A stretch of 64,000 nt of DNA from an uncultured Candidatus Peribacteria bacterium (lineage in GTDB: Bacteria > Patescibacteriota > Gracilibacteria > BD1-5 > JAGOOR01). Location of the stretch: NCBI GenBank assembly GCA_965231115.1, contig OZ246415.1, positions 883,621-947,620 of the forward strand, written 5' to 3'. Under the pieces are notes generated by a model. It worked only from the letters and a program-made list of their open reading frames with translations, was not told the origin of the DNA and ran no database searches. The translations under genes and the position numbers were made by a program. Shown piece by piece: positions 30,617-50,094 of this stretch (positions within the stretch are counted from its first letter, which is position 1; every line of letters begins with the position of its first letter).

Positions 30617-32761
30617 CTATTCATCATCTTCTTCGAATTTCACACCTCGTTCAGCGCGGATTTTTTCTGTGATAGCGGCAGGAACTGGAGAGTAATGTGA
30701 GAATTCCATTGCATAGGTAGCACGACCCTGAGACATAGATCGGAGAGAAGTCGAATAGCCAAACATTTCTGAGAGTGGGACAAACGCAGCGATGATCTTC
30801 GCCATACCACGATCACTCATCTCATTAATCTGACCTCGTTTTGCATTCACATCACCGAGAACGTCACCCATATAATCTTCTGGAGTTGAGATTTCGACCT
30901 TCATGATCGGCTCGAGAAGGATAGGCTTCGCTTTCTTTGAAGCCTCTCGGAAACATCGGCTCGCAGCGATACGGAATGAGAGTTCATTTGAGTCGACATC
31001 ATGGTAAGAACCAAATGTGAGGGTTGCCTGAACATTTACCATAGGGTAACCAGCGATAACACCTCGAGCATATGATGCATTAAGCCCCTTCTCAACACCT
31101 GGGATGAATTCTCGTGGGATAACACCTCACTTGATCTCGTCGATAAAGTGGTTTTCTTCTGTGTACTCTTCTGGCTGAGCCTTTCTCATATCTTCTGTGA
31201 TAGGTTCAAACGTGATGATAACATGACCAAATTGACCACGACCACCAGTTTGTTTCTTGTATTGAAATTCTTGATCTTTCACGACTTGAGTGATAGTTTC
31301 ACGGTAAGCAACTTGAGGAGCACCAACATTACACTCGACTTTGAATTCACGACGCATGCGATCGACGATGATATCGAGGTGGAGTTCACCCATACCAGCG
31401 ATGATAGTCTGACCCGTTTCACTGTCAGAGCGGATACGGAATGATGGATCTTCTTCAGCGAGTTTACCGAGAGCAGTACCCATTTTTTCTTGATCTGCTT
31501 TTGATTTTGGCTCTACAGAGACAGAGATAACTGGTTCTGGGAAATCGAGAGAGAGGAGCTTGATAGGGTGTGCCTTGTCACAGAGTGTGTGACCTGTTTT
31601 TGTCTCCTTGAGACCGATAACCGCAGCGATATTACCCGCTGAGATTTCTGTGATTTCTTTTCGATTGTTTGCGTGCATCTCGACGATACGACCGATACGT
31701 TCTGACTCACCATTGTTAGCATTGGTGACAGATGTACCAGACTTGAGAACACCAGAGTAAACACGGACAAATGTGAGACGTCCGACAAATGGATCCGTCA
31801 TGATCTTGAATGCAAGTGCTGAGAGTGGTTCAGAATCGAGTTGTTTAAATTCAACCTTCTTTTCATCATCATCTGGATCAGTACCGACGATTTTTCCTTC
31901 GTTGATATCGAGTGGTGACGGGAGGTAATCAACAACAGCATCGAGAACTTTCTGAACACCGACGTTTGCGAGGGCAGAACCACAGAAGAGTGGGAATACA
32001 TTTCCAGACATAACACCCTTGCGGATACCAGCCTTGATTTCTTCGACTGTGAGCTCCTCACCACCGAGATATTTATTCATGAGTGCATCATCCTGTTCTG
32101 CAGCTTTTTCGATCAGTTCGAGACGGCATGCTTCTGCACGAGCTCTCATATCTTCTGGGAAAGCACGCTCGACGACTTCGACACCCATATTCCCCTTGAA
32201 TTCCCATGCTTTCATAGTGACGAGGTCGATGATACCCTTGAATTCATTTTCACGACCGATAGGGAGCTGAGCTCGGACTACTTTATTTCCTGCGAGACGT
32301 TTTTTGATTGATTCAAATGTCATTTCGAAATCTCCACCAGTCTTGTCCATCTTGTTCGCAAACGCGATTCGAGGAACACCGTATTTGTCAGCTTGCTTCC
32401 AAACTGTTTCTGACTGAGGTTCTACACCCTGTGAACCGTCGAATACGACGATACCACCATCGAGGACACGCATTGAGCGCTCTACTTCGATCGTGAAATC
32501 CACGTGACCTGGAGTATCGATGATATTGATATCAAGACCGTTCCATGCTGTCTTTGTTGCAGCAGCCGTGATCGTGATACCACGTTCTTGTTCCTGTTCC
32601 ATCCAGTCCATAGTCGCAGCTCCATCATGTACCTCACCGATTTTGTGAGTTTTACCAGAATAGAAGAGGATACGTTCAGTGGTAGTTGTTTTACCAGCAT
32701 CGATATGCGCGATAATACCTATATTACGGATATTGCGCTTCTTGTCGTCAGTTGCAGACAT
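30617..32761 (-). CDS. fusA: elongation factor G
   Basis: [13 protein letters not shown]-domain. Start taken at [16 protein letters not shown] (ATG 32761), not the track's 45-aa upstream extension. A single in-frame TGA (31127-31129) within [17 protein letters not shown]. Confidence 0.9.
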
Positions 32762-40189: not shown

Positions 40190-40373
40190 ACTAAAAAAGA
40201 AAAAAATAGAACCGCGTGAGGCTGGTCCTATTTAATTTTTCAATTGGTTTGAAGGAAAGAACTCTGCTCAGGCGAAGGACACTGTTGTGTATTGATAGAC
40301 TCTCTTAATTAAAACCAAATCTGGGATCTCACTGTAAAAGAATTTATCTGAATTTGTAACGTGTACTTCTCGC

Positions 40374-40400
40374 ATTATACAGAAAATATTTTTTTGACAA
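40374..40400 (-). promoter_or_regulatory. putative promoter of the helicase gene (long leader)
   Basis: Minus strand reads TTGTCA-15 nt-(TG)TATAAT, about 175 nt upstream of ATG 40189. Confidence 0.35.
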
Positions 40401-40450
40401 GTTTATTTTTTATTTCCGTATAAATTTTATGTATAAATATGGTTTAGACA

Positions 40451-40477
40451 TAAAAAATGACCCTCCTGTGGGGTCAT
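40451..40477 (-). terminator. hairpin terminator downstream of the low-GC operon
   Basis: atgaccc / gggtcat stem with a 7-nt loop and a T-run on the minus strand. Confidence 0.5.
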
Positions 40478-40574
40478 ACTATAATGGAATAAATAGTTAT
40501 TGGTTGACCTAAAGGTCTAGAACCATTTGGTGATCAGAAATGGGACAAATGGCACACCTAAAAAGGTCATTATC

Positions 40575-41537
40575 TTATCAATTAATTATGGGCTCAATGA
40601 CAGATGTTAATATATATCAGTATTCTCAATCTATACCTCATTTTCTTACCCATTTCTTTGTTCATACCAATAGAAGAAAAAAATTAATCCACTCCGTGTT
40701 AATTTTATATCAAGTCACATTTTCATACTCGTGGATTAATGTTTCTAAGACTCCATTTTCTCTAAGAGAAGGATTCCAAGTAATCATGAGAGCAAGCTCT
40801 TCTTCTGGAAATCACCACCGTATTGTTCACCCAAAATCTATAAGTCGAGAAACATCTCAATTAAACAAAACATTTCATTGATGAATATCTCCATGTAAAA
40901 GCCTTACATCTTTTGATTTTTTTTCTGGCAAATTTTTATATATTTGTGCTAATTTTAATAAAATTAAATCTATTAGATTTCATGTTTTTCAGGATTTTTG
41001 CTTAATCTCTGCTGTTACATTTGTAACATAATCATCTAAATTATTATGCGGACCTATACCCTGAGTATTTAAATAGGCATATCCTGGTGGTTTATCTTGC
41101 ACTACATTGTGGACTTGAGCAATATTTGTTCATAGACTTACTAACTGTAGTTTTCCTGGAACGTAATCGTCTCACATTGATTTCCATGTCTTGCCTTCAA
41201 CAAGGTCTTGTAGTACCCAATAATAGATCCGCTGATCATTTTCATAAACACCCATTGAGTATATATGCGGGATTAATCATGGATATTTATTTTGTATAAA
41301 TAATTCTAATTCTGTTTCTTTATGCATTCTCTCTGTCAATGAAATTTTAAGTGCAAATTTTATTCCATTAATATCTACTTCTACACAACTTCTATTTCTT
41401 CCAGATCATATAAACCGCCAATTAATTCAATTTATTCACATAATACCATCAACTCTTGACTGCATATTTGATCATAGAGTGACACTATTAACTATGTTGA
41501 TAATTTCTCCAGAAAATACCGGATCTAAAACCTCCAT
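40575..41537 (-). CDS. aminoglycoside/choline-kinase-like phosphotransferase (APH family)
   Basis: Codon-by-codon check: open from ATG 41537 to TAA (plus tta 40575-40577) with 19 in-frame TGA. LLHGDIHQ-G-NVLFN-G-DVSRLIDFGG catalytic/DFG-like motif. Confidence 0.65.
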
Positions 41538-41568
41538 AATGTTGTAAATTAATTATCTAAGTATTTTT

Positions 41569-42693
41569 CTATTTGTTGATTGATAGTCTTGATTGTGAAT
41601 TAATAGAGGATCATAGTTGATAAATCCTGTCATGTACATCATCAATAGACGTAGCATCCCTAAATTTTACAAAAAAATCAACAGTCTTATATCATGTGGG
41701 AGTAGAATAAAGCTCTCTTATATCAAATCACAAATTATGAAATAACCCCATAGCATTTTTTAGAGTGCCACTTTTTTGAGGAATTTTGATCAATCACGTA
41801 AATTCAGAGTTATTTTCGTTAGAGGACAATAATTTAAATCAAAAATTAAGAGGGTCTAAATCTTCTAAATCATTATCGTAATGATCCCGTTTTTTAGTAT
41901 ATGTATAAATAAATTCCATTTCATCGATTCATTTTTTTATGGAAACAATTCCTAGTATACTTATACCAGACTCATGCAATTCTGTTAATTTCTGATGCAG
42001 GGATCATGGTACATCTGGAATATTCATTATTTCACAATTCAATTCATCTGACAAGGCTCATGATGGGACAATATCTTCTGGATATTCAGAGTTATTTGCC
42101 CCCATTAGTAAGAAATATGTAAAATTATTTCTAGGTCAAAATTCCCTCGATAATATATCAACAGACTCATCGTCAATACTCGGGATGTATTGATGTGGAG
42201 CAATCGCTCATGCATATGAATCTAATTTAGGAGAGTTTTTTTGAGCATGAATATGTTCGATAGCTCAAGATGTTGAACCAGTATTAATATGATTTAGTTT
42301 TTTTCAGAACATAGCAACTTGTGAATCTGATGTTTGGTAAAAAGACTGCACGTGTGTTCACAGGTCATGAATATTTCAAATAGGAGTTCATTTTTTACAA
42401 ACAAGCCAATATTCAATTTTCATCTTAGTTACTGCAAGTATTTTTAGTTGAGACATAGAATTACCAATTCCCTCAAGTGTATCTTTTACAGACGATCAAA
42501 AAACATTATAAAATGGAATTAAAGCCAATCAGTTTGGAGTTTCAGAGTTCAATAAGGACTCAACTGCAAGCTTATTGGAAGAGCATAATTGATAGCATGA
42601 CTTTTTATCCAATCATAAATCATTAGCATGTTGAACAGTATTTGTGGCTCTAGAAGGAGTGCCTGGATTACCAAGCAAGAAAAGTTTGTGCAT
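41569..42693 (-). CDS. divergent prephenate dehydratase-like protein (PDT plus ACT domains)
   Basis: Codon-by-codon check: open from ATG 42693 to TAG (plus cta 41569-41571) with 18 in-frame TGA. FLLGNPGTPS, LIPFYNVFGSSV, NNFTYFLL (TRF-motif position). ACT-like IPQKSGTLKNAMGLFHNLGFDIRELYSTPT..VDFFV. Confidence 0.55.
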
Positions 42694-42698
42694 AAAAA

Positions 42699-43394
42699 TT
42701 AGGTAGAAGAAATTACGCGTTCGGCTGTAGCTTTAGCTAAAATGCTCATGGTGTCAAAAAGTGAAAATTCATAAAAGTTTGTGCATATAAGCTGTAAATC
42801 AGTACAAGCCAGAAGTACATCTTTTACTTGTTTACTTCTCATGGTTTCAACTATTTCATGTATAACTTGTTGGTTATTTTGAGAAGAAATATTATTTACG
42901 ATATTATATATAACTAAATCTAGCTTTGATTGCAAATCTGGATCAATTTTTACAATATTGATAGATTTTTGGAGTAGTGGCAATTCATACAGTTGATATT
43001 TTGAAGTAGCAGTTGTAGAGAGTAATCAAATCAATGTAATTCAAATTGCAGCAAGATAGTTTACAGTTTCATCTATAATACTCACAACAGGTATGGAAAC
43101 AGCTCTACGTATTTGCTCAATTAATACATGAACTGAATTACAAGGGATTACAATAAAATCTGCTCCACCTTTTTCCAAATTTTTCGCTCCTTCTATCAAG
43201 TAAGGCAAATATTCAGTTATTCATTCACCTGTTAAAAGAAAATTTTTCTCTAAATCAAGTGGCAATGCCGTATTCCATATAAGTATTGGAGGTCTAGTAT
43301 CAATCTTATTTTGTGAAAAAATATTAATTAATTCTAAATAAAATTTAGCAGTTGTATCTGGTCAAAGTCATCAAAGGACGCCTATAGTTTTCAT
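42699..43394 (-). CDS. aspartate/glutamate-type amino acid racemase
   Basis: MKTIGVL-G-GL-G-PDTTAKFY N-terminus. Two catalytic Cys contexts, VIPCNSVH and LLACTDL. In frame with track ORF 42699..42983. Confidence 0.7.
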
Positions 43395-43397
43395 AAA

Positions 43398-45941
43398 TTA
43401 TTTAATAATAAATTGGATAAATTTTCATTTTCCGTATTTCAAAACAACTTTGTCTCAAACTTTGAAATCAAACACAGTATTCATGCCTGTAATCTTTTCG
43501 TTATTCACCGATATTGCTCATCATTGAACCCTTCTCCGTATTTCAGATCCAGAAAGAGATACATTATTTTCTTTCACAAGAGATAATAAGCTCATAACAT
43601 TAAATCATTCCTCTAAATAAGTTATCTCCATAGTTACAATATCGCTAGGAGCCTGTTTTTTAGAAAAGACTTGCTCAAATTCTCTCTCTGCAGATTTAAC
43701 CATATCATCTTCATAAAAAAGACCAAGTATGCATCTAGCCAGCATTTTTTTAACGAGAATAGGGTTAATTAATCACGATTTAACAGCTTTTTCAATGAAT
43801 TCTACTTCATCCTCCGAGGTGGAAACAACATAAGAAAAATAAGTTAACATCTGCTCATCGTTCATGGACATTATTTTTCAATAGTCCTTATCAACTTTGT
43901 GTTGTAAGTTTTCTTCTGGCTTCATGCCAACAAAGTTATTGTATGTTTTACTCATCTTTAGCCCATCAAACCCATTAAGTAGGGGTGTCGTAATAACTGC
44001 TTGGGCAGATTGTCCCTGACTAGCTTGTAAATCCCTTCATCTATAGAGATTAAACAATTGATCTTGCCCTCCGAGTTCCACATCTGAATTTAAAACTACC
44101 GAGTCCCATCATTGAAGCAAAGGGTAGATAAATTCTCAAATAGCTATTGAGCCGCCATCTTTCATTCTTTCTTTGAATTGTTCTTTTTGAAGCATTTGTC
44201 CGATTTTTCATTTCATCGCTAGGCCTAGTAAATCTGCTGCAGTCCAAGTTCCATACCAGTCCTTGTTATATACTATTTTTGCAGAACCTGAGTCTAGATC
44301 AATAACTTTACGAACTTGAAGAATATAGGTCTCAATATTTTTGTTAATTTGTTCCTCACTCAACACCTCTCTTGTGCTTTTTTTATCGGGATCACCTATT
44401 GTGGCGGTAAAAGTACCGATTAAAAAACGAATTTCATGTCAAAGTGCTTGGAAAAGGTGTAATTTTTTTAATGGAATTAAGTGACCAATATGTATTTCAT
44501 CTCATGTCGGGTCTATTCACAACTTAATAATTAATTTTTTTCAGGCTTTTATCTTTTGAGCTAATTCTGACTCCCCTATAAAATCAGCAGTACCTCTTTT
44601 GATAAGCTCAATTTGCCCCTCGGGAGTAGATTTCTTAACATCAAAATCATGTGGCAAAAACCTTCTTCACTTTATCTCATGCTCTATATTCTCCAGCTCC
44701 CCGGAGATATTTATTTCATCCATTTTTAAGTGCTTATATTTTCATGTGTGCGATGCCGCTACAGATGGCTCACTATTTCTTTCTAAATTCAAATCTGTAT
44801 TCATACTTCAGAGAAGATCTTTCTTTTCTAATCAAGTAATTTTTAGGTTTACATCACTCACAAAATGTAGATATTCCTCTGGAGAAATATTACAAATTTT
44901 ACAAATTTGTTCAAGTTGAACCTGTCTATCTTTAGAAAATCTATCAAATGCTTGAGGTGAAACACCTTGTCTTTCAAATAATATATCTCATTTTGGATCC
45001 TCATAGTACGGAGGTTTCAAATACATATCCGATGTTAAATGGACATGATTAGGATTTCGTGCTTGTCAAAGCAATGTTGTTCTAATTAGTACTCGAAGAT
45101 GATTAAAATTTCTCTCAGCTTTTCATCATAATGAGATATAGTAAGGATTATCGTATTGGTGATGTGCTTTATTTATGCCTTTATCATGAAATAAGTCCTG
45201 TAATCAGTAAATGTGACTTACTGCATATTTTAACGCATTTTTTTTACCTTCTTCTCATCCATGTTTTTCTCACATTTTCCTAAATACTGCAATTAAGTTT
45301 TGTACTTCTTGTTCATTCATTGAGTTTAAATTTTGCTCAATTTGATCAATTTGCTCCTTAACTTCATCATCCATCAAAAGGTAATCAAAATCAACTATAT
45401 CAACAAGATCAGGAAAATACTTTTTTATAAAACTCTTTAAAATAAATATAGTTTTTAAGCTTTGTATTTGAGTTTTTTCTGCATCGTATCCATTAAATTC
45501 TATCGCTTCAGACATTCATAAATGGATTCTTAGTCTTGAGGAGCAATTCGGATGGTGTTTATTAATAGTAGTATGAACATGTCGCAAGTATCCTAGTCAT
45601 CCTAGAATATAGCTTGGTAAAACTATGCTTGTAGAACTTTGAATTCCTCAAATACCCACATTCATAATAGTATTGACTTGTTTTCATTGAATAACATCCC
45701 TCGATAAATTAAATAAATCAGGAATAGTCGCTTCAGATATGTGTGTATAATTCAAACCATGGCCTATTCTAATCAAATCTAGAAATATATTCCTATGCGC
45801 CAAAGATTCAAATTCCAATCAATCATATGCAAGGTTATCTTTAGTAGGATCCTCAAGTATTCTCAAGACACGACCATGCGTTAAGGTTGGATTTTCATGA
45901 ATACTTTTTCATGAGCTTGTCGTTTCTTGTAAACTAAGCAT
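43398..45941 (-). CDS. tyrS: tyrosyl-tRNA synthetase fused to an unassigned N-terminal extension of about 435 aa (847 aa)
   Basis: Whole ORF checked codon by codon: no TAA/TAG between ATG 45941 and TAA (plus tta 43398-43400), with 32 in-frame TGA. HIGH motif (EIHIGHLIPL) at about residue 483. ELGGQDQ, YPLLQ-G-WD, KMSKT and an S4-like C-terminus SGSEIRRRVQGGAISVNNEKI. A TAA lies two codons upstream of the ATG. Confidence 0.75.
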
Positions 45942-46027
45942 AAGGAATTATTTAAAATAAAACATGAGAATAATATTGAAAGAATAAAAGAAAAAAACTG
46001 AATTTATATGAAATAAATAATAATAAA

Positions 46028-46057
46028 ATTATTGATATATTGAATATTATCAATAAT
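46028..46057. promoter_or_regulatory. perfect 10-bp inverted repeat (candidate operator) in a divergent intergenic region
   Basis: attattgata (46028-46037) and tatcaataat (46048-46057), separated by the near-palindromic spacer tattgaatat. Lies between ATG 45941 (minus) and ATG 46086 (plus). Confidence 0.4.
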
Positions 46058-46085
46058 ATTTTTCATATTGTTTCATTTTATTCCT

Positions 46086-47831
46086 ATGAATACAGCCGAG
46101 TTACAAGAATTACATCCAGAAGAATATAGAGACTTCTTCTCTCATAATATGATGGTTTTTTCCCTACCCTTTTGTATGGTATGGATGGGGAGCTCAGATG
46201 AAACAAGCGTAATACACATAAAACAATCTATACCTCTCAGAATTTTTATATGAATACGAAAAGTCAGTTCCCCCTGAATCCATCTCAAAAATTTTCGGTC
46301 ATATTCACATTTTCGAGAAAAATTTTTTACTCGTAAAATGCCTGATTATCTCCCTCCAGCAGATATGTATATCAGACAATTGCTGAAGGAAATGCCAATA
46401 AATGAAGGAATAGAGTTATCAATACTTTCCGAATGCTGAAGAACTTTAGGCTTTGGTACACATACGCTAGTGTTATTTAGTATTTTTCTAGCACGAAAAT
46501 GGCTCGATGATGATAGTATTTTTCAAAAAATGAGTGAAGAATCTATAAAAGCACCTCATGAAGCTATCTGACCAAATACATTTTTATATGAATTGCTCAT
46601 AGAACATCAAAAAATCCTAAAAAAAATACAGCAAGATTCAGGTTTCATGATTCTCGCAACTTGCCTCCTTGGCTGAGCCTACCCTATTGTCTCATACACA
46701 TCAGCTAGAAAAGATACATATAATATTTTTGCTTTTTCTCTTAAAGATTTTCTGGGTGAACATGCACCTGAGTATCCTCATTGTAGCTATGAGCAATCTA
46801 TTTATTTTCCTGGACTCCCATATCTCTATGAGAACTATATAAGATCCAACAATCCAGACAAAATTAATATCGATACACCAAGAAAAATAATACATGAAGT
46901 TACGGCTAAGCGCCATAAGAATTATACCGAAGAACAAATCCCTGATTTTCTATGTTCTTCATCGGACCTATCTCATGAAAATTTCACAAATATACTCATG
47001 AGGCTCAAGACCTATAAAAGTATTCAAATATTCCAAGCAATGATACAGGCACATAAACATGAATGATCTCAGAAAAGCTCACTTGAATTGATAACATTAT
47101 TAGAACAAAGGATCTCTCTAGATACCCTAAAAACCAATGTTGATGAAGATATGAAACAATGTTATCATGATATTTGGGAAAAATTTCATAATAAATCCCA
47201 TCCTGCCATTTTCCCAAATATTACACTTTGAAGTTGAGGCTGTTTTAACATTATCAGCCCTCCGATTGTTCATCAAGATATTATGCGTGAGTTACCAACT
47301 TCAATGAGAGATAATTATCCCGATGGGGTAACTGTTTATAGGAGTTGGAAAGATGGTTTGGAGTTAAATGGTTTTACATTAGAACAAAATATAAGTCAAA
47401 AACATTATCATAAGCTCACAGAAAGGAATATCGGCTTATGTACCGTCTCTAACGAAGTATATGTTATACCTCAGAGTGGTTTAGAAGCGTTTTCTAAGGG
47501 AAAAGTTATTTTTGATCTTTCAAATCAGAAAATATATGCCGACTGACATACAGTAACAAGTGCACAAATACCGTCACAGAAGGCTACAATTGAGATAATT
47601 AAGCTTCTTCTTGATGCACCAAATAACATTCTCAAAAATTCGGAACTTCCACGATCAGTCTATAGCAGTATGAAGAGCGAAATGAATTGAAAAATAATCA
47701 GCCCGATTAATAAAATTTGTCACGAGGTTACTGGTGAATTATTCCCTCTTTTACTTGAAGGCAGTCTCAGTAAATTTACACTACAACTTACACTACAACA
47801 AGATAAATATCTTGGTTTTTTTACTCGTTAA
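46086..47831 (+). CDS. fusion protein: GHMP-kinase-like N-terminal region plus OmpR/PhoB-type winged-helix DNA-binding C-terminus (581 aa)
   Basis: Codon-by-codon check: open from ATG 46086 to TAA 47829 with 10 in-frame TGA. FSLPFCMVWMGSSDET (GHMP motif I-like), SEC-G-RTLGFGTHT (motif II-like). C-terminal VIFDLSNQKIYADGHTVTSAQIPSQKATIEIIKLLL..ILKNSEL..KIISPINKI resembles Trans_reg_C. Confidence 0.5.
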
Positions 47832-47913
47832 CATCAATCGTTTTCTCGGAAATAATCTCCACACCTTTTTGCCTGGTTCAGAATATAATCTGTATACAGT
47901 GTCTTAAAAAGAA

Positions 47914-48507
47914 CTATTCCAAAGATTTTTCTATCTCAAGAAGCGTTTCAAATTCCTCTATCATTGGATGATTCCAGGTTTCTCGAAGCATCTTCAGAAC
48001 ATTTTCTTCAAACCAAATTTTTTTATCCTTTCATTTATTAAAAAGCTTCCAAATATCTTTTCAGTGATCATTGTAAGCTATAAATAAAGCTTCGAGATTG
48101 TGAATTTTATCAGCCACAGCAATTGCTTTTGCTCACTCTGATCCATTCCTGACAGTTTCAATATATTTAAGTTTTTTTTCTTCCCAAGGAAGACTCGGGT
48201 CATTTGAAACTGCCTTTACTAATTCGTACACTTCTTCTCCGAGTTCCTCACGGAAACTATCTACAGTATAGTTCGTGTCTTCCAGGACATCATGAGTTAG
48301 AGCAGAGGCTAGTATGGTATCTGAAAAGCCATATTTTGCTAGCCTTAGAGCAATCATGAAAGGATGTGTCATGAAAGGAACTTCCTCTCATTTCCGTTTC
48401 TGGTTAGCATGAGCTTTAACGGCAAGCCGAGTGGCTTTTTCAAGAATTCATATATCAAAATCAGGTTTTTTAATCTTCTTTTCTGCTTTTTTTAGATTTT
48501 TTTTCAT
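47914..48507 (-). CDS. HD-domain hydrolase, SpoT/RelA-hydrolase (small alarmone hydrolase)-like
   Basis: HANQKRK..PFMTHP and ALTHDVLEDT motifs. ATG 48507 is in frame with track ORF 48133..48372 and continues through TGA to TAG (plus cta 47914-47916). Confidence 0.65.
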
Positions 48508-48618
48508 ACGATAAATTTTATTTAATAAAGCCCTCTTGTCACGATTGATATTAGTTTCAATAATCTTGAAGCATCTAAGCGTCTCTCGCACTAATCAATC
48601 ACAACACAATCATAATTG

Positions 48619-49221
48619 TTATCGTGCTGCTCCCGAGCTTTTAGATAGACCATATTCCCAAGGATTAATAGTTTTATAATCGTAGAGGTAGAGGACTTTG
48701 TGTTTTTTCGGATCTTTTTGACGAGAATTATAGGCTTCAATTTCTGCTTCTATATTAGGCACACTGTCTTCTCTGCTAACCCCGATATAGATATTTTTAA
48801 CAGGACTCTGAATTATGGCTTTCAAGATGTGTTCATCGTGTTTCTTGAGAACGGTACCGAATATAAGAAGATCTCCTCAAATAGCTCAAAGAGATCTGTA
48901 ACAATGATTGAGGTAGCCATTATGGATGATTTTTTTCATCTTTTGCTCACTCTCTCACTCTGAAACAAAAACAGGATAGATGTTGTTCTCGAGATTGCCT
49001 CGTATTTGTGTTACCAGATCGACTCAAGTCTTGCTATATGTCTTTTTGATTATTTCGTCTCCTGCATCGAAGATATGGAGTGCTCCATGAAGAAAGTGCA
49101 GTTCGAAGCTTTTTGAATTCCAATAAACAACAAATCACTCATGGGAACTCTCTTCAGTTTCTCAGAAACCGTCTTGGCGATAGGGTACAAAAAAGGGCGG
49201 TCGAAACGCGCTTTCATGAGA
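48619..49221 (-). pseudogene. probable 5'-truncated remnant of a SIR2-like/DUF4917-like gene
   Basis: The frame is open for 200 codons below an in-frame TAG (plus cta 49222-49224). No ATG/GTG/TTG occurs in the first 94 codons, although they contain protein-like LHFLHGALHIFD and FVSEGESEQK motifs. The first ATG (48939) would give only 106 aa. Family call is from memory of the motif pattern. Confidence 0.4.
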
Positions 49222-49369
49222 CTATCGCCAAGACAGCTTCATTCTCGTTCTTTACACAAAAGACCGAAGTCAAATCTGAAAGGACGGAGCGGTTTACAAC
49301 CGCCCTATACTAGATTCGAAGGGTATTTTGGGTAAAAAATGGAACGAAAAGAAATGTAACTGTCTTGGC
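49171..49369. other. noncoding segment with alternative long-range pairings
   Basis: 49223-49234 (tatcgccaagac) pairs perfectly with 49171-49182. 49227-49236 (gccaagacag) also pairs perfectly with 49360-49369. Local hairpin gcggtt-tac-aaccgc at 49289-49303. agggcgg (49194-49200) is complementary to ccgccct (49300-49306). Confidence 0.4.
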
Positions 49370-49421
49370 TTTAAGAGCTTAGCCATTTCTTACCTTTATC
49401 AAGTCTTATTTGCTGTACTCT

Positions 49422-49655
49422 ATGCCTTATATTGATTTGGATGAAGAAGAGCGTAGAATACACAGTATGAATAAGATAATCTGTCCGCAATGCTGATCTG
49501 AGAACATTCAAGATTTACTACCTGAGGTAAACAGTGAAGGGAAAATATTTCGCAAACAGTATGAATGTAGAGAGTGTAGTAATAGATTTGAAGTACCACC
49601 TAGTGAAGAAGAAATCGCAGTTTTTAAAAAAATGATAGCTGAAATTCCTAGGTAA
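49422..49655 (+). CDS. small zinc-ribbon protein (77 aa)
   Basis: CPQC-G-S..CRECSNRF: two CxxC pairs, with the Gly of CPxCG encoded by TGA 49494-49496. Ends at TAA 49653-49655. Confidence 0.5.
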
Positions 49656-49791
49656 TAGAAATGAGCAAATTCATTGATACTTTGATGGTTTTTTAAAGTC
49701 TCTCTTAGTGTACCTCATAGATAGGCATAACGGTCTCACACCCTTAGTATTTATTACCAATCCCACAAAGGATTTAAGCCATAAATTAAGC

Positions 49792-49819
49792 AAAAAAATG
49801 ACCCTAGGTAGTAGGGTCA
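49792..49819 (-). terminator. hairpin terminator downstream of tRNA-Gln
   Basis: tgacccta / tagggtca stem with a T-run on the minus strand. Confidence 0.55.
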
Positions 49820-49842
49820 CAATGTGACAATAGTGTACGTAA

Positions 49843-49917
49843 TGGTTGGGGATGAGGGATTCGAACCCCCGCGTGGCGGAGTCAAAGTCCGCTGCCTTAC
49901 CGCTTGGCTAATCCCCA
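49843..49917 (-). tRNA. tRNA-Gln (anticodon TTG)
   Basis: TGGGGAT/ATCCCCA acceptor, GCCAAGCGGTAAGGC D-arm, CTTTGAC loop, GGTTCGAATCC T-arm and encoded CCA. Confidence 0.85.
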
Positions 49918-49983
49918 ACGTACGCCTGAGTTTAGAGAAAAATCTGTTTTTGCAAATGCTGTTTTCCAAATAAAATATTTTTT

Positions 49984-50011
49984 TTGACAAATAGTATCCT
50001 CTCTCTACAAT
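49984..50011 (+). promoter_or_regulatory. putative promoter of tRNA-Asn
   Basis: TTGACA-16 nt-TACAATGC, 8 nt upstream of the tRNA 5' end. Confidence 0.5.
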
Positions 50012-50019
50012 GCCCCAGT

Positions 50020-50094
50020 TCCTCGGTAGCTCAGTGGTAGAGCAGTTGGCTGTTAACCAATTGGTCGTAGGTTCGAATCCTACCCGGGGAGCCA
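50020..50094 (+). tRNA. tRNA-Asn (anticodon GTT)
   Basis: TCCTCGG/CCGGGGA acceptor, GCTCAGTGGTAGAGC D-arm, CTGTTAA loop, GGTTCGAATCC T-arm and encoded CCA. Confidence 0.85.

What the first reader, a model, noticed from the sequence alone, without database searches (positions are those of the whole stretch)
40478..47850. Low-GC, TGA-dense five-gene block that looks like an ORF desert in the standard code
Sample 60-nt lines here count about 23-33% GC, against about 40% or more in flanking housekeeping genes. The track has almost no ORFs of 60 aa or longer. Under code 25 the block is fully coding: a four-gene minus-strand operon plus a divergent regulator-like gene. The left boundary is a hairpin terminator (40451-40477) next to the helicase promoter region. 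The right boundary is a convergent junction at about 47.85 kb. I recognised no integrase, transposase or convincing att repeat. The compositional shift therefore suggests a foreign or fast-evolving origin within code-25 organisms or their phages, but that is not proven.
Basis: partly seen in the sequence, partly recalled or inferred. Interest (0 to 1): 0.7.

Follow-up and report, generated by a model that had tools for sequence, protein, structure and literature searches.

The report
Portable tyrosyl-tRNA synthetase island beside tRNA-Gln
The AT-rich, TGA-rich block is a real six-gene cassette in a bacterium that reads TGA as glycine; it sits in a swap-prone slot next to a tRNA-Gln gene and carries a tyrosyl-tRNA synthetase fused to an uncharacterised synthetase-like domain, which in distant microbes also lies beside Trp/Tyr synthetase genes and often a racemase gene.

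Summary
Window 40.5-48.5 kb has 30-35% GC, against 41% +/- 2.7 elsewhere. It looks ORF-poor only under the standard code and is fully coding with TGA = Gly.

- **TGA density** is not a separate anomaly; the block's low GC predicts it.
- **Extent.** The block is an 8.0-kb, six-gene cassette (the HD hydrolase gene belongs to it). The cassette is conserved as a unit at 85-93% nt identity in two other metagenome lineages (three contigs). All six genes are under purifying selection.
- **Position.** Close relatives keep the flanking order (SufB, ATP-grasp, tRNA-Asn/Gln, helicase) but hold different cargo in this slot. The cassette always lies beside a tRNA-Gln 3' end. It is bracketed by att-like direct repeats: 46 nt at 96% in a relative, and a degenerate tRNA-end-plus-terminator copy here. 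No integrase is present.
- **Cargo.** An unknown 581-aa gene with a conserved upstream motif faces an operon of N-domain::TyrRS, amino-acid racemase, PDT/ACT-like protein and APH-type kinase.
- **N-domain.** It belongs to an unnamed family with a predicted class Ic synthetase-like fold. In four distant locus groups this family lies beside a racemase gene (three of four) and/or TrpRS genes (three of four).

"Foreign origin" is partly supported. "Fast-evolving" and "phage" are not.

The parts
40190..40455 (-). Conserved promoter and 5' leader of the DEAD-box helicase gene. Homology to all relatives stops at about 40452-40455, which is the left synteny breakpoint of the variable slot.
   Evidence: Local alignments to L037, L038, L039, L041, L042 and L036. 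Sequences beyond the breakpoint are unrelated in the relatives.
40457..40524 (-). Left boundary repeat: hairpin terminator (40457-40477) preceded by a degenerate copy of a tRNA-Gln 3' end (GGTTCTAGACCTTTAGGTCAACCAA). Together they resemble the tRNA-Gln 3' end plus terminator at 49798-49866.
   Evidence: Terminator scan. Local alignment score 54 against a shuffle mean of 33.5, sd 5.6, max 53. Probe scan score 31 against a null 99th percentile of 27 and max 30.
40575..41537 (-). APH-family small-molecule kinase, 320 aa, last gene of the operon.
   Evidence: Pfam PF01636, 48 bits against a cutoff of 23. HGD motif seen in the sequence. dN/dS 0.23.
41569..42693 (-). Prephenate-dehydratase-like protein with an ACT-like domain, 374 aa. 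Divergent; by eye the motif reads TYF where TRF is expected.
   Evidence: Pfam PDT, 42.5 bits against a cutoff of 25.2; ACT is below its cutoff. NCBIfam equivalog cutoffs are not reached.
42699..43394 (-). Asp/Glu-type, PLP-independent amino-acid racemase, 231 aa. Both catalytic Cys motifs are present (IPCNS, ACTDL).
   Evidence: Pfam PF01177, 102 bits. TIGR00035, 136 bits against a cutoff of 93. dN/dS 0.075.
43398..44651 (-). C-terminal half of the 847-aa protein: a genuine bacterial TyrRS with HIGH, KMSKT and an S4-like tail.
   Evidence: TIGR00234 tyrS, 299 bits against a cutoff of 113.8. PDB 6bqy at E 1e-69. Closest genomic relatives are single-length Patescibacteria TyrRS at 31-40%.
44652..45941 (-). 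N-terminal half (about 430 aa): a member of an unnamed family with a predicted class Ic aaRS-like fold and no HIGH or KMSKS motif.
   Evidence: No Pfam or PDB sequence hit. AF2 model pTM 0.72. All top 50 Foldseek hits are TyrRS/TrpRS catalytic domains or PIsnA. 85 relatives found by exhaustive HMMER, many of them stand-alone.
45986..46013 (-). Conserved intergenic motif TTTCATATAAATTCAGTTTTTTTCTTTT between the divergent genes. Candidate operator or promoter element.
   Evidence: Unique in the window, 0 expected by chance. Its 15-nt core is present only next to 58x-aa genes in L006, L007, L104 and L009 among 105 loci.
46086..47831 (+). 581-aa protein of unknown family, divergent from the operon. 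A homolog accompanies the TyrRS gene in most related loci (not seen on the short L105 contig).
   Evidence: Homologs at 28-82% identity in L002, L006, L008, L009 and L108. No Pfam, NCBIfam or PDB hit. AF2 model poor apart from residues 460-570.
47914..48507 (-). Small HD-domain protein of RelA/SpoT hydrolase type (HDVLEDT motif), 197 aa. Sixth gene of the cassette.
   Evidence: Pfam HD_4. TIGR00691 partial match. Same composition as the block. Conserved with the cassette in L006 and L104.
48619..49221 (-). Truncated DUF4917 gene remnant lying between the cassette and tRNA-Gln. Absent from the equivalent position in L104 and L006.
   Evidence: The open frame has no start codon and matches profile positions 152-293 of 311 only. 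The blastn gap relative to L104 covers window 48548-49705.
49798..49917 (-). tRNA-Gln(UUG) gene (49843-49917) and its terminator hairpin (49798-49820). Right anchor of the island.
   Evidence: ARAGORN and Rfam. Terminator scan. Homologous tRNA end plus terminator lies next to the cassette in L104 and L006.
50020..50094 (+). tRNA-Asn(GUU), partner of tRNA-Gln. The pair is conserved in L041 and L042 but inverted in L041.

Best explanation
**What it is.** The block is the 8.0-kb core (window about 40548-48564) of a tRNA-Gln-linked genomic island of roughly 9.4 kb (about 40457-49797) in a code-25 (TGA = Gly) CPR bacterium.

**Shown.**
- The six genes form a unit that is conserved, under purifying selection, and found beside tRNA-Gln 3' ends in different genomic neighbourhoods.
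- In close relatives the slot between tRNA-Asn/Gln and the helicase promoter holds other, mostly AT-rich cargo.
- Copies of the tRNA 3' end and longer direct repeats bracket the cassette.

**Inferred.**
- The cassette relocates by site-specific recombination at tRNA-Gln genes, using a recombinase encoded elsewhere.
- It keeps the AT-rich composition typical of a flexible gene pool.
- TGA enrichment follows automatically, because TGA is the only AT-rich glycine codon in this code.

**Function (inferred from domain content and conserved neighbourhoods).** It is a tyrosine / aromatic amino acid 'supply and charging' operon.
- An active TyrRS is fused to a synthetase-like N-domain that probably binds or transforms the aromatic amino acid or its activated form.
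- A broad amino-acid racemase interconverts D and L forms.
- A PDT/ACT-like protein and an APH-type kinase are accessory enzymes.
- The divergent 581-aa gene, with its conserved upstream motif, is the likely local regulator.
- The (p)ppGpp-hydrolase-like HD protein would link the unit to amino-acid starvation signalling.
For: - **Composition:**. TGA explained by GC. Code 25.
- **Cassette conserved as one block:** 93% nt identity to L104 and 85% to L006/L007 over 8.0 kb, with the same gene order.
- **Purifying selection:** dN/dS 0.075-0.23.
- **Variable slot in syntenic relatives:**. Left breakpoint at about 40455.
- **tRNA-Gln linkage and repeats:** L006 has four copies of the 23-nt tRNA-Gln 3' end and a 46-nt, 96% direct repeat spaced 8330 nt apart around the cassette. 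The window has a degenerate tRNA-end-plus-terminator repeat. L104 starts inside the tRNA-Gln 3' end and has T-arm-like repeats at both ends.
- **Contig ends:** contigs L104 and L007 end at the cassette edges.
- **TyrRS identity:**
- **N-domain fold and family:**
- **Link to aromatic amino acid genes:** L008 has TyrRS heading SKI-EPSPS-CM-aminotransferase-PDH/PDT-chorismate synthase. L108 has N-TyrRS, racemase, PDT, prephenate dehydrogenase.
- **Stand-alone N-family genes in distant organisms:** they lie next to a racemase gene in three of four locus groups (L010, L012/L013, L106/L107) and next to TrpRS genes in three (L011, L012, L106). tRNA-Trp, chorismate mutase, anthranilate synthase or trpAB genes are also nearby.
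- **Conserved intergenic motif** travelling with the 58x-aa gene.
Against: - No integrase, excisionase or transposase lies in or next to the island.
- The window's own flanking repeat is degenerate and only modestly above the shuffle controls.
- The cassette carries what may be the cell's only TyrRS, which is unusual cargo for a mobile element.
- The TyrRS half is CPR-type.
- The GC offset is preserved at every divergence level from 54 to 94% aa identity. That fits long vertical residence as well as repeated transfer.
- The aaRS-like fold of the N-domain rests on a medium-confidence model (pLDDT 69). Profile-profile comparison with the TyrRS half found nothing (probability 0.15).
- The regulator role of the 581-aa protein has no homology support.
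Confidence: 0.6

Rival explanations
1. The block is a vertically inherited, lineage-specific tyrS operon and is not mobile. It is AT-rich and TGA-rich because it is weakly expressed or under relaxed codon selection. Its different neighbourhoods reflect ordinary genome rearrangement at a tRNA-associated recombination hotspot.
For: - The TyrRS half is CPR-type and passes the tyrS equivalog cutoff.
- All genes are under purifying selection.
- The GC offset from the flanks persists at 94, 84, 59 and 54% aa identity, and the unfused TyrRS of L008 is also low-GC.
- No integrase is present.
- Highly expressed genes in the window avoid TGA: the helicase has 0 and the gene at 30617-32761 has 1.
Against: - SerRS in L006 has normal GC (0.448) and TGA/Gly of 0.04, so synthetase genes as such are not AT-rich.
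- Direct repeats and multiple tRNA-Gln 3'-end remnants flank the cassette precisely.
- The cassette moves as one 8.0-kb unit with sharp homology edges.
- The slot holds unrelated cargo in close relatives.
Confidence: 0.27
2. The cassette is a biosynthetic or modification module in which the N-domain is an enzyme that consumes Tyr-AMP or Tyr-tRNA made by the fused TyrRS, as cyclodipeptide synthases and IsnA-type enzymes use synthetase-like folds. The racemase, PDT-like protein and kinase would tailor a tyrosine-derived product. A separate housekeeping TyrRS would exist elsewhere in the genome.
For: - The N-domain has a class Ic-like fold without HIGH/KMSKS, and PIsnA is among the fold hits.
- The family has strongly conserved polar motifs.
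- Stand-alone members sit next to extra TrpRS copies (two in L011), racemases and a tRNA_edit-domain protein.
- The location is an island.
Against: - No CDPS or PvcA Pfam match.
- No second TyrRS is seen, though only 64 kb is available.
- In L008 and L108 the neighbours are primary aromatic amino acid biosynthesis genes.
- Small CPR genomes rarely encode secondary metabolism (general knowledge).
Confidence: 0.1
3. The block is a phage or plasmid fragment, or an assembly chimera joining a low-GC organism to this contig.
For: The compositional jump. Some relatives' contigs end at the cassette edges.
Against: - No hits in IMG/VR, phage records or plasmid records.
- No phage-type genes.
- An independent Logan assembly (L001, 18.6 kb) spans both junctions with the same gene order.
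- L006 also spans both junctions in another sample.
Confidence: 0.03

Closest known systems
tRNA-gene-associated integrative genomic islands
   Same: It is adjacent to the 3' end of a tRNA gene and flanked by direct repeats derived from the tRNA end. Its base composition is deviant and AT-rich. Its presence and content vary among close relatives, and decayed remnants have accumulated at the site (the DUF4917 fragment and multiple tRNA-end copies).
   Different: No integrase or excisionase is encoded. The cargo includes a bona fide aminoacyl-tRNA synthetase that may be essential. The repeat in this window is degenerate.
Double-length pseudo-dimeric TyrRS of Leishmania and trypanosomatids (Larson et al. 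2011, as cited in PMC5370408)
   Same: One polypeptide carries two class Ic synthetase-like halves, and only one half has intact catalytic motifs.
   Different: Here the degenerate half is not a recognisable duplicate of TyrRS (hhalign probability 0.15). It belongs to a separate family that also exists as stand-alone proteins. The active half carries its own anticodon-binding and S4-like domains. The host is bacterial.
ORF1 partner of non-canonical TrpRS-A in CPR bacteria and DPANN archaea (Mukai et al. 2017, PMC5370408)
   Same: Both are orphan proteins with class I synthetase-like features, encoded next to class Ic synthetase genes and tRNA-Trp in uncultured small-genome lineages. Function is unknown in both cases, and a heterodimer with the synthetase has been proposed.
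   Different: Sequence identity with ORF1 could not be tested because no sequences are held. The tRNA-Trp in L011 has G73, not A73. The TrpRS neighbours here match bacterial trpS models. Mukai et al. predicted no Rossmann fold for ORF1. No racemase link and no TyrRS fusion was reported there.
Synthetase-like proteins recruited to amino-acid metabolism (HisZ, AsnA) and cyclodipeptide synthases
   Same: A synthetase-like fold without the canonical ATP motifs, encoded with genes for the matching amino acid.
   Different: No sequence similarity to any of them, and no Pfam match. Activity is untested.

Membership tests
Genetic code 25 (TGA = Gly) organism | In-frame TGA at positions that are conserved Gly, not Trp, in homologs | tested here: met
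   TyrRS and SufB alignments to PDB chains. ORF coverage rises from 68% to 98% when TGA is read as sense.
tRNA-linked integrative genomic island | Located at the 3' end of a tRNA gene | tested here: met
   tRNA-Gln lies at 49843-49917. The cassette is next to a tRNA-Gln 3' end in L104 and L006 as well.
tRNA-linked integrative genomic island | Flanking direct repeats (att-like) that include the tRNA 3' end | tested here: met
   Clear in L006: a 46-nt, 96% repeat around the cassette and four copies of the 23-nt tRNA end. Degenerate in the window: score 54 against a shuffle maximum of 53 and 31 against a null maximum of 30.
tRNA-linked integrative genomic island | Encodes its own integrase or recombinase | tested here: not met
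   No such domain in any block gene. None was seen in L006 or L104.
tRNA-linked integrative genomic island | Variable presence at the site among close relatives, with deviant composition | tested here: met
   L041, L042, L036, L038 and L009 hold other cargo. GC z is -2.4 to -4.1 and tetranucleotide z reaches 7.2.
Bacterial tyrosyl-tRNA synthetase (tyrS, TIGR00234) | Score above the equivalog cutoff with HIGH and KMSKS motifs | tested here: met
   299 bits against 113.8. HIGH and KMSKT are visible in the sequence.
Bacterial tyrosyl-tRNA synthetase (tyrS, TIGR00234) | Charges tRNA-Tyr, and is the sole copy in the genome | not testable with these tools
Double-length pseudo-dimeric TyrRS | Two class Ic synthetase-like halves in one chain | tested here: met
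   At the fold level only: all top 50 Foldseek hits for the N-half are TyrRS, TrpRS or PIsnA. The model has pLDDT 69 and pTM 0.72.
Double-length pseudo-dimeric TyrRS | The second half is a diverged duplicate of TyrRS | tested here: not met
   hhalign of the N-family against the TyrRS half gives probability 0.15. The N-half belongs to a family with stand-alone members in organisms that are not recoded.
Mukai ORF1 / TrpRS-A system | Adjacent to a class Ic synthetase gene and tRNA-Trp | tested here: met
   L011 has TrpRS, tRNA-Trp, the N-family gene, an aminotransferase and a second TrpRS.
Mukai ORF1 / TrpRS-A system | tRNA-Trp with the A73 discriminator base and an archaeal-type TrpRS-A partner | tested here: not met
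   The L011 tRNA-Trp has G73. The neighbouring TrpRS genes match bacterial trpS models.
Mukai ORF1 / TrpRS-A system | Sequence homology to ORF1 | not testable with these tools
   No ORF1 sequences or accessions are held.
Prephenate dehydratase (PheA) | PDT domain above the family cutoff with equivalog-level similarity | tested here: inconclusive
   Pfam PDT scores 42.5 against 25.2 (met), but NCBIfam equivalogs score 40 against 219 (not met). By eye the motif reads TYF where TRF is expected.
Asp/Glu-type amino-acid racemase | Family score above cutoff and two catalytic Cys motifs | tested here: met
   PF01177 scores 102 bits and TIGR00035 scores 136 against 93. Cys residues in IPCNS and ACTDL are seen in the sequence. 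Substrate is unknown.
Winged-helix (OmpR-like) transcription regulator, for the 581-aa protein | Recognisable DNA-binding domain | tested here: not met
   No Pfam, NCBIfam or PDB profile hit. Fold hits to BaeR, MarR and Fox domains have E of about 1, which is not significant.
Phage or plasmid cargo | Relatives on viral or plasmid records | tested here: not met
   No match.

The most novel reading that the evidence does not exclude
The N-terminal domain defines a new, widespread synthetase-like protein family. It works together with class Ic synthetases (TyrRS or TrpRS) and often a dedicated amino-acid racemase, for example to sense, edit or transform D/L aromatic amino acids or their activated (adenylate or tRNA-bound) forms. 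In code-25 CPR bacteria it has been fused to what may be the cell's only TyrRS. The whole essential module would then hop between tRNA-Gln sites without an integrase of its own.
Probability: 0.3. Interest if true: 0.8.

Novelty: new variant of a known kind. Interest (0 to 1): 0.62.

Why it matters
- **Annotation.** In TGA-recoded bacteria, AT-rich accessory DNA looks like an ORF desert under the standard code, because TGA becomes the preferred glycine codon there. That matters for gene calling and for island detection in such genomes.
- **Evolution.** It documents a tRNA-linked swap site in poorly known CPR bacteria. The portable cassette there carries a core translation enzyme, which bears on how essential genes move in reduced genomes.
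- **New biology.** It exposes an unnamed synthetase-like family. This family is repeatedly linked to Tyr or Trp synthetases, often a racemase, and aromatic amino acid genes across distant lineages. That gives a concrete, testable handle on a possible new layer of aromatic amino acid or aminoacyl-tRNA metabolism.

Tried and rejected
- **Phage or plasmid origin:** no hits.
- **T-box or other known RNA elements in or around the block:** only the two tRNAs were found.
- **'Gene desert or pseudogene' at 50.1-52.0 kb:** rejected. An intact ATP-grasp gene (76% to L041 over 400 aa) lacks an ATG start and was truncated by my own ORF caller.
- **Internal duplication of TyrRS as the origin of the N-domain:** hhalign negative.
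- **Word-indexed homolog search with the N-domain profile:** added nothing.
- **GTDB species-representative scan:** found only single-length CPR TyrRS. Fused forms may have been missed because TGA breaks the back-translated search patterns.
- **581-aa protein:** the structure prediction had pLDDT 42, the fold search was not significant, and the PDB profile searches of both halves were negative. My by-eye impression of GHMP-kinase-like glycine motifs and an OmpR-like C-terminus is therefore unsupported.
- **Housekeeping identity between the window and the L006/L002 organisms:** impossible to measure, because no flanking genes are shared.
- **Identity with Mukai's ORF1:** untestable.
- **Tool restriction:** window proteins containing TGA could not be handed to the structure and representative-search tools. 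P0001 (94% identical) and P0007 were used instead, with W at TGA positions, which may have lowered model quality.

Full report
**1.
- In 1-kb windows, GC is 0.30-0.35 from 40 to 48 kb. Outside that stretch it averages 0.410 +/- 0.027 with a minimum of 0.354, so z = -2.4 to -4.1.
- A GC-corrected tetranucleotide measure also singles out 40-48 kb, with z up to 7.2.
- Under the standard code only 23-26% of 40-48 kb lies in open frames of at least 100 aa. When TGA is read as sense, 93-97% does, as in the rest of the window.
- TGA encodes glycine. In alignments to solved structures it falls on conserved Gly of TyrRS inside the block and of SufB outside it, and never on Trp.

**2. Two corrections to the description.**
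- First, TGA density is not a second anomaly. TGA supplies 36-64% of Gly codons in the block, against about 12% elsewhere. A regression of TGA/Gly on the GC of all non-Gly codons, trained on 126 non-cassette genes from this window and related code-25 contigs, predicts the cassette values, with residual z mostly within +/-2. TGA is simply the AT-rich glycine codon.
- Second, the unit has six genes, not five. The HD-domain gene at 47914-48507 shares the composition. It is also part of the stretch that aligns as one block to relatives: window 40548-48548 at 93% nt identity to L104, and 40582-48564 at 85% to L006/L007.

**3. What the genes are.**

| Window coordinates | Strand | Product | Key evidence |
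|---|---|---|---|
| 40575-41537 | - | APH-family kinase | |
| 41569-42693 | - | Divergent prephenate-dehydratase-like protein with ACT-like domain | |
| 42699-43394 | - | Asp/Glu-type amino-acid racemase | above the TIGR00035 cutoff; both catalytic Cys motifs present |
| 43398-45941 | - | 847-aa N-domain::TyrRS fusion | see section 4 |
| 46086-47831 | + | 581-aa protein of unknown family | no Pfam, NCBIfam or PDB match; structure model too poor to use |
| 47914-48507 | - | RelA/SpoT-type HD hydrolase-like protein | |

The C-terminal half of the 847-aa protein is a genuine bacterial TyrRS. It scores 299 bits against a cutoff of 113.8 for tyrS, carries HIGH and KMSKT, and matches PDB TyrRS at E 1e-69.

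**4. The N-terminal half of the TyrRS protein.**
- Residues 1 to about 430 match nothing by sequence in Pfam or the PDB.
- A model built from the 94%-identical P0001 with four homologs has pTM 0.72 and pLDDT 69.
- All of its top 50 structural matches are catalytic domains of TyrRS or TrpRS, or the tyrosine-binding isonitrile synthase PIsnA. E values run from 3e-5 to 2e-3 and TM scores from 0.3 to 0.5.
- The canonical HIGH and KMSKS motifs are absent.
- A profile-profile comparison with the true TyrRS half finds no homology. This is therefore not a recent internal duplication of the Leishmania 'double-length TyrRS' kind.
- An exhaustive HMMER search found 85 relatives. A few are other TyrRS fusions from TGA-recoded organisms. 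Many are stand-alone proteins of 360-450 aa from organisms that are not recoded, with shared motifs (GGxPQxxFN, GKxPVYYxARDGD, MGxKHGG...AAHPxYN) and no Pfam family or name.

**5. A conserved neighbourhood for that family.**

| Locus | Arrangement |
|---|---|
| L010 | Stand-alone gene followed 4 bp later by an Asp/Glu racemase gene |
| L011 | TrpRS, tRNA-Trp, N-family gene, aminotransferase, second TrpRS |
| L012/L013 | Divergent from a racemase, TrpRS and chorismate-mutase cluster next to trpAB |
| L106/L107 | Racemase, class Ic synthetase, N-family gene (4-nt overlap), next to anthranilate synthase genes and a tRNA_edit-domain protein; flanked by resolvase and transposase genes |

Within the code-25 clade the TyrRS gene, fused or not, heads aromatic amino acid genes. 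L008 has a near-complete shikimate-to-prephenate operon. L108 has racemase, PDT and prephenate dehydrogenase. L105 has PDT upstream and racemase downstream. The invariant core of the fused forms is N-domain::TyrRS, racemase and a PDT-like gene.

Mukai et al. 2017 (PMC5370408) described an orphan 'ORF1' with class I synthetase-like features, always next to non-canonical TrpRS genes in CPR and DPANN genomes. It may be the same family. I could not test that, and the L011 tRNA-Trp has G73 rather than their A73.

**6. Where the cassette sits.**
- Using the flanking helicase as a probe, close relatives (helicase 83-90%, SufB 92-93%, other neighbours 67-93% aa identity) keep the order SufB, ATP-grasp, tRNA-Asn/Gln, helicase, TGT. 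None has the block genes in the slot.
- The slot's content in each relative:

| Locus | Genes in the slot |
|---|---|
| L041 | UMPH-1/HAD, sulfotransferase, ornithine-cyclodeaminase-like and TauE-like genes, also AT-rich and TGA-rich |
| L042 and L036 | ATP-grasp/MATCAP 780-aa gene plus a 506-aa membrane protein |
| L038 | PLD-like gene and a longer HD gene |
| L009 (SufB 92%) | Methyltransferase, NUDIX, AA-kinase, APH, SIS genes and a 58%-identical homolog of the 581-aa gene, in the opposite orientation |

- Homology of the helicase promoter and leader to all relatives stops at window 40452-40455, right at the terminator.
- Conversely, the same cassette lies among unrelated genes in L006 (5'-3' exonuclease and VIT1 on one side; glyoxalase, Mur ligase and SerRS on the other) and in L002 (next to umuDC-like, resolvase, restriction-modification and ThsB genes).

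**7. Boundary scars.**
- In all three close versions the cassette abuts a tRNA-Gln 3' end plus terminator.
- L006 has an intact tRNA-Gln(CTG) followed by three further copies of its last 23 nt, one of them 100% identical. It also has a 46-nt direct repeat (96% identical) spaced 8330 nt apart that brackets the cassette.
- L104 begins inside the tRNA-Gln 3' end. It carries a T-arm-like repeat (GGTTCTAGACC) at both ends.
- In the window, the sequence just downstream of the APH gene (40457-40524) aligns with the tRNA-Gln 3' end plus terminator at 49798-49866. The score is 54 against a shuffle mean of 33.5, sd 5.6 and max 53. A probe scan gives 31 against a null maximum of 30. This is significant but degenerate.
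- Between the cassette and tRNA-Gln the window has an extra 1.16 kb that L104 and L006 lack. It contains a truncated DUF4917 gene matching only profile positions 152-293 of 311. That looks like debris from another insertion.
- No integrase was found anywhere in the island.

**8. Foreign, fast-evolving, or neither?**
- The six genes are under purifying selection between the window and L006 (dN/dS 0.075-0.23). Helicase, SufB and ATP-grasp compared with L041/L042 give 0.045-0.10. The cassette is functional and not unusually fast-evolving.
- The cassette is 8-12 GC points below its flanks in every host with 38-47% GC, at 94, 84, 59 and 54% aa identity. Only in a 22%-GC lineage does it match its surroundings.
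- The TyrRS half is closest to ordinary Patescibacteria TyrRS.
- No viral or plasmid relative exists in the collections searched.
- The sharp unit boundaries, the repeats, the tRNA linkage and the alternative cargo argue for a portable island (my best explanation, 0.6).
- The persistent GC offset and the CPR-type, possibly sole, TyrRS keep a vertical, low-expression explanation alive (0.27).

**9. Likely working.**
- The intergenic region carries a 28-nt motif at 45986-46013. It is unique in the window. Its 15-nt core occurs only next to 58x-aa genes among 105 fetched loci, including L009 where the adjacent operon is different.
- This suggests, but does not prove, that the 581-aa protein and the motif form the local control unit.
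- I infer that the operon couples tyrosine or aromatic amino acid supply (PDT-like protein, racemase) to charging (TyrRS).
- The N-domain would act on the amino acid or on its activated form.
- The kinase and the (p)ppGpp-hydrolase-like protein would be accessory parts.
- None of these activities was or could be tested here.

**10. Verdict.** The finding is real and more structured than described. It is a conserved, selected, six-gene tyrosyl-tRNA synthetase cassette in a tRNA-Gln-linked variable slot of a code-25 CPR bacterium. As an island it is a variant of a known kind. Its cargo is the novel part: a TyrRS fused to a member of an unnamed synthetase-like family that recurs beside Tyr or Trp synthetase genes, and often a racemase gene, across distant lineages.

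Noticed in passing
window 40190-40455 (minus strand): The helicase 5' leader appears more conserved among relatives than the helicase protein itself. It contains an invariant hairpin (AATAGGACCAGCCTCACGCGGTTCTATT) followed by a T-run just before the start codon, so it may be an attenuator-like regulatory element. No Rfam match and no covariation, because all pairs are invariant.
   Followed up: partly
window 50146 to about 51420 (minus strand): An intact ATP-grasp gene (76% identical to L041's over 400 aa) has no ATG start and probably uses an alternative start codon. An ATG-only ORF caller truncates it to 126 aa and makes 50.5-52.0 kb look empty.
   Followed up: yes
window 48619-49221 (minus strand): Truncated DUF4917 gene remnant (profile positions 152-293 of 311, no start codon) inside a 1.16-kb segment that is absent from the equivalent position in L104 and L006.
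   Followed up: yes
L041 6083-6661 compared with L042 2962-3189 and window 49843-50094: The tRNA-Asn / tRNA-Gln pair is inverted in L041 relative to L042 and the window. This is further evidence of rearrangement at the site.
   Followed up: no
L002/L003 15700-22559: In the 54%-identity relative the cassette lies next to umuDC-like genes (IMS, Peptidase_S24), a resolvase or serine recombinase, a type I restriction-modification system and a ThsB-TIR gene. That is a mobile or defence region.
   Followed up: no
L106/L107 1131-2483: A methyltransferase fused to a tRNA_edit (YbaK-like aminoacyl-tRNA deacylase) domain sits just upstream of the racemase, class Ic synthetase and N-family operon. Resolvase and transposase genes flank the region.
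   Followed up: no
L009 5904-11738: A 58%-identical homolog of the 581-aa gene, with the same upstream motif, faces a different AT-rich operon (SIS-domain protein, APH kinase, AA_kinase, NUDIX). The gene-plus-motif unit may therefore be a reusable control module for several cassettes.
   Followed up: partly
L036 compared with L042 (780-aa and 506-aa gene pair): Orthologous cargo genes differ by about 7 GC points and in TGA/Gly (0.04-0.08 against 0.20-0.30) between two relatives. GC and TGA use therefore drift quickly between these lineages.
   Followed up: no
window 49706-49743 (minus strand): A further weak T-arm-like remnant (GGGTGTGAGACCGTTA) lies downstream of the tRNA-Gln terminator, matching the left repeat of L104. 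Its score of 28 is borderline against a null 99th percentile of 27.
   Followed up: partly
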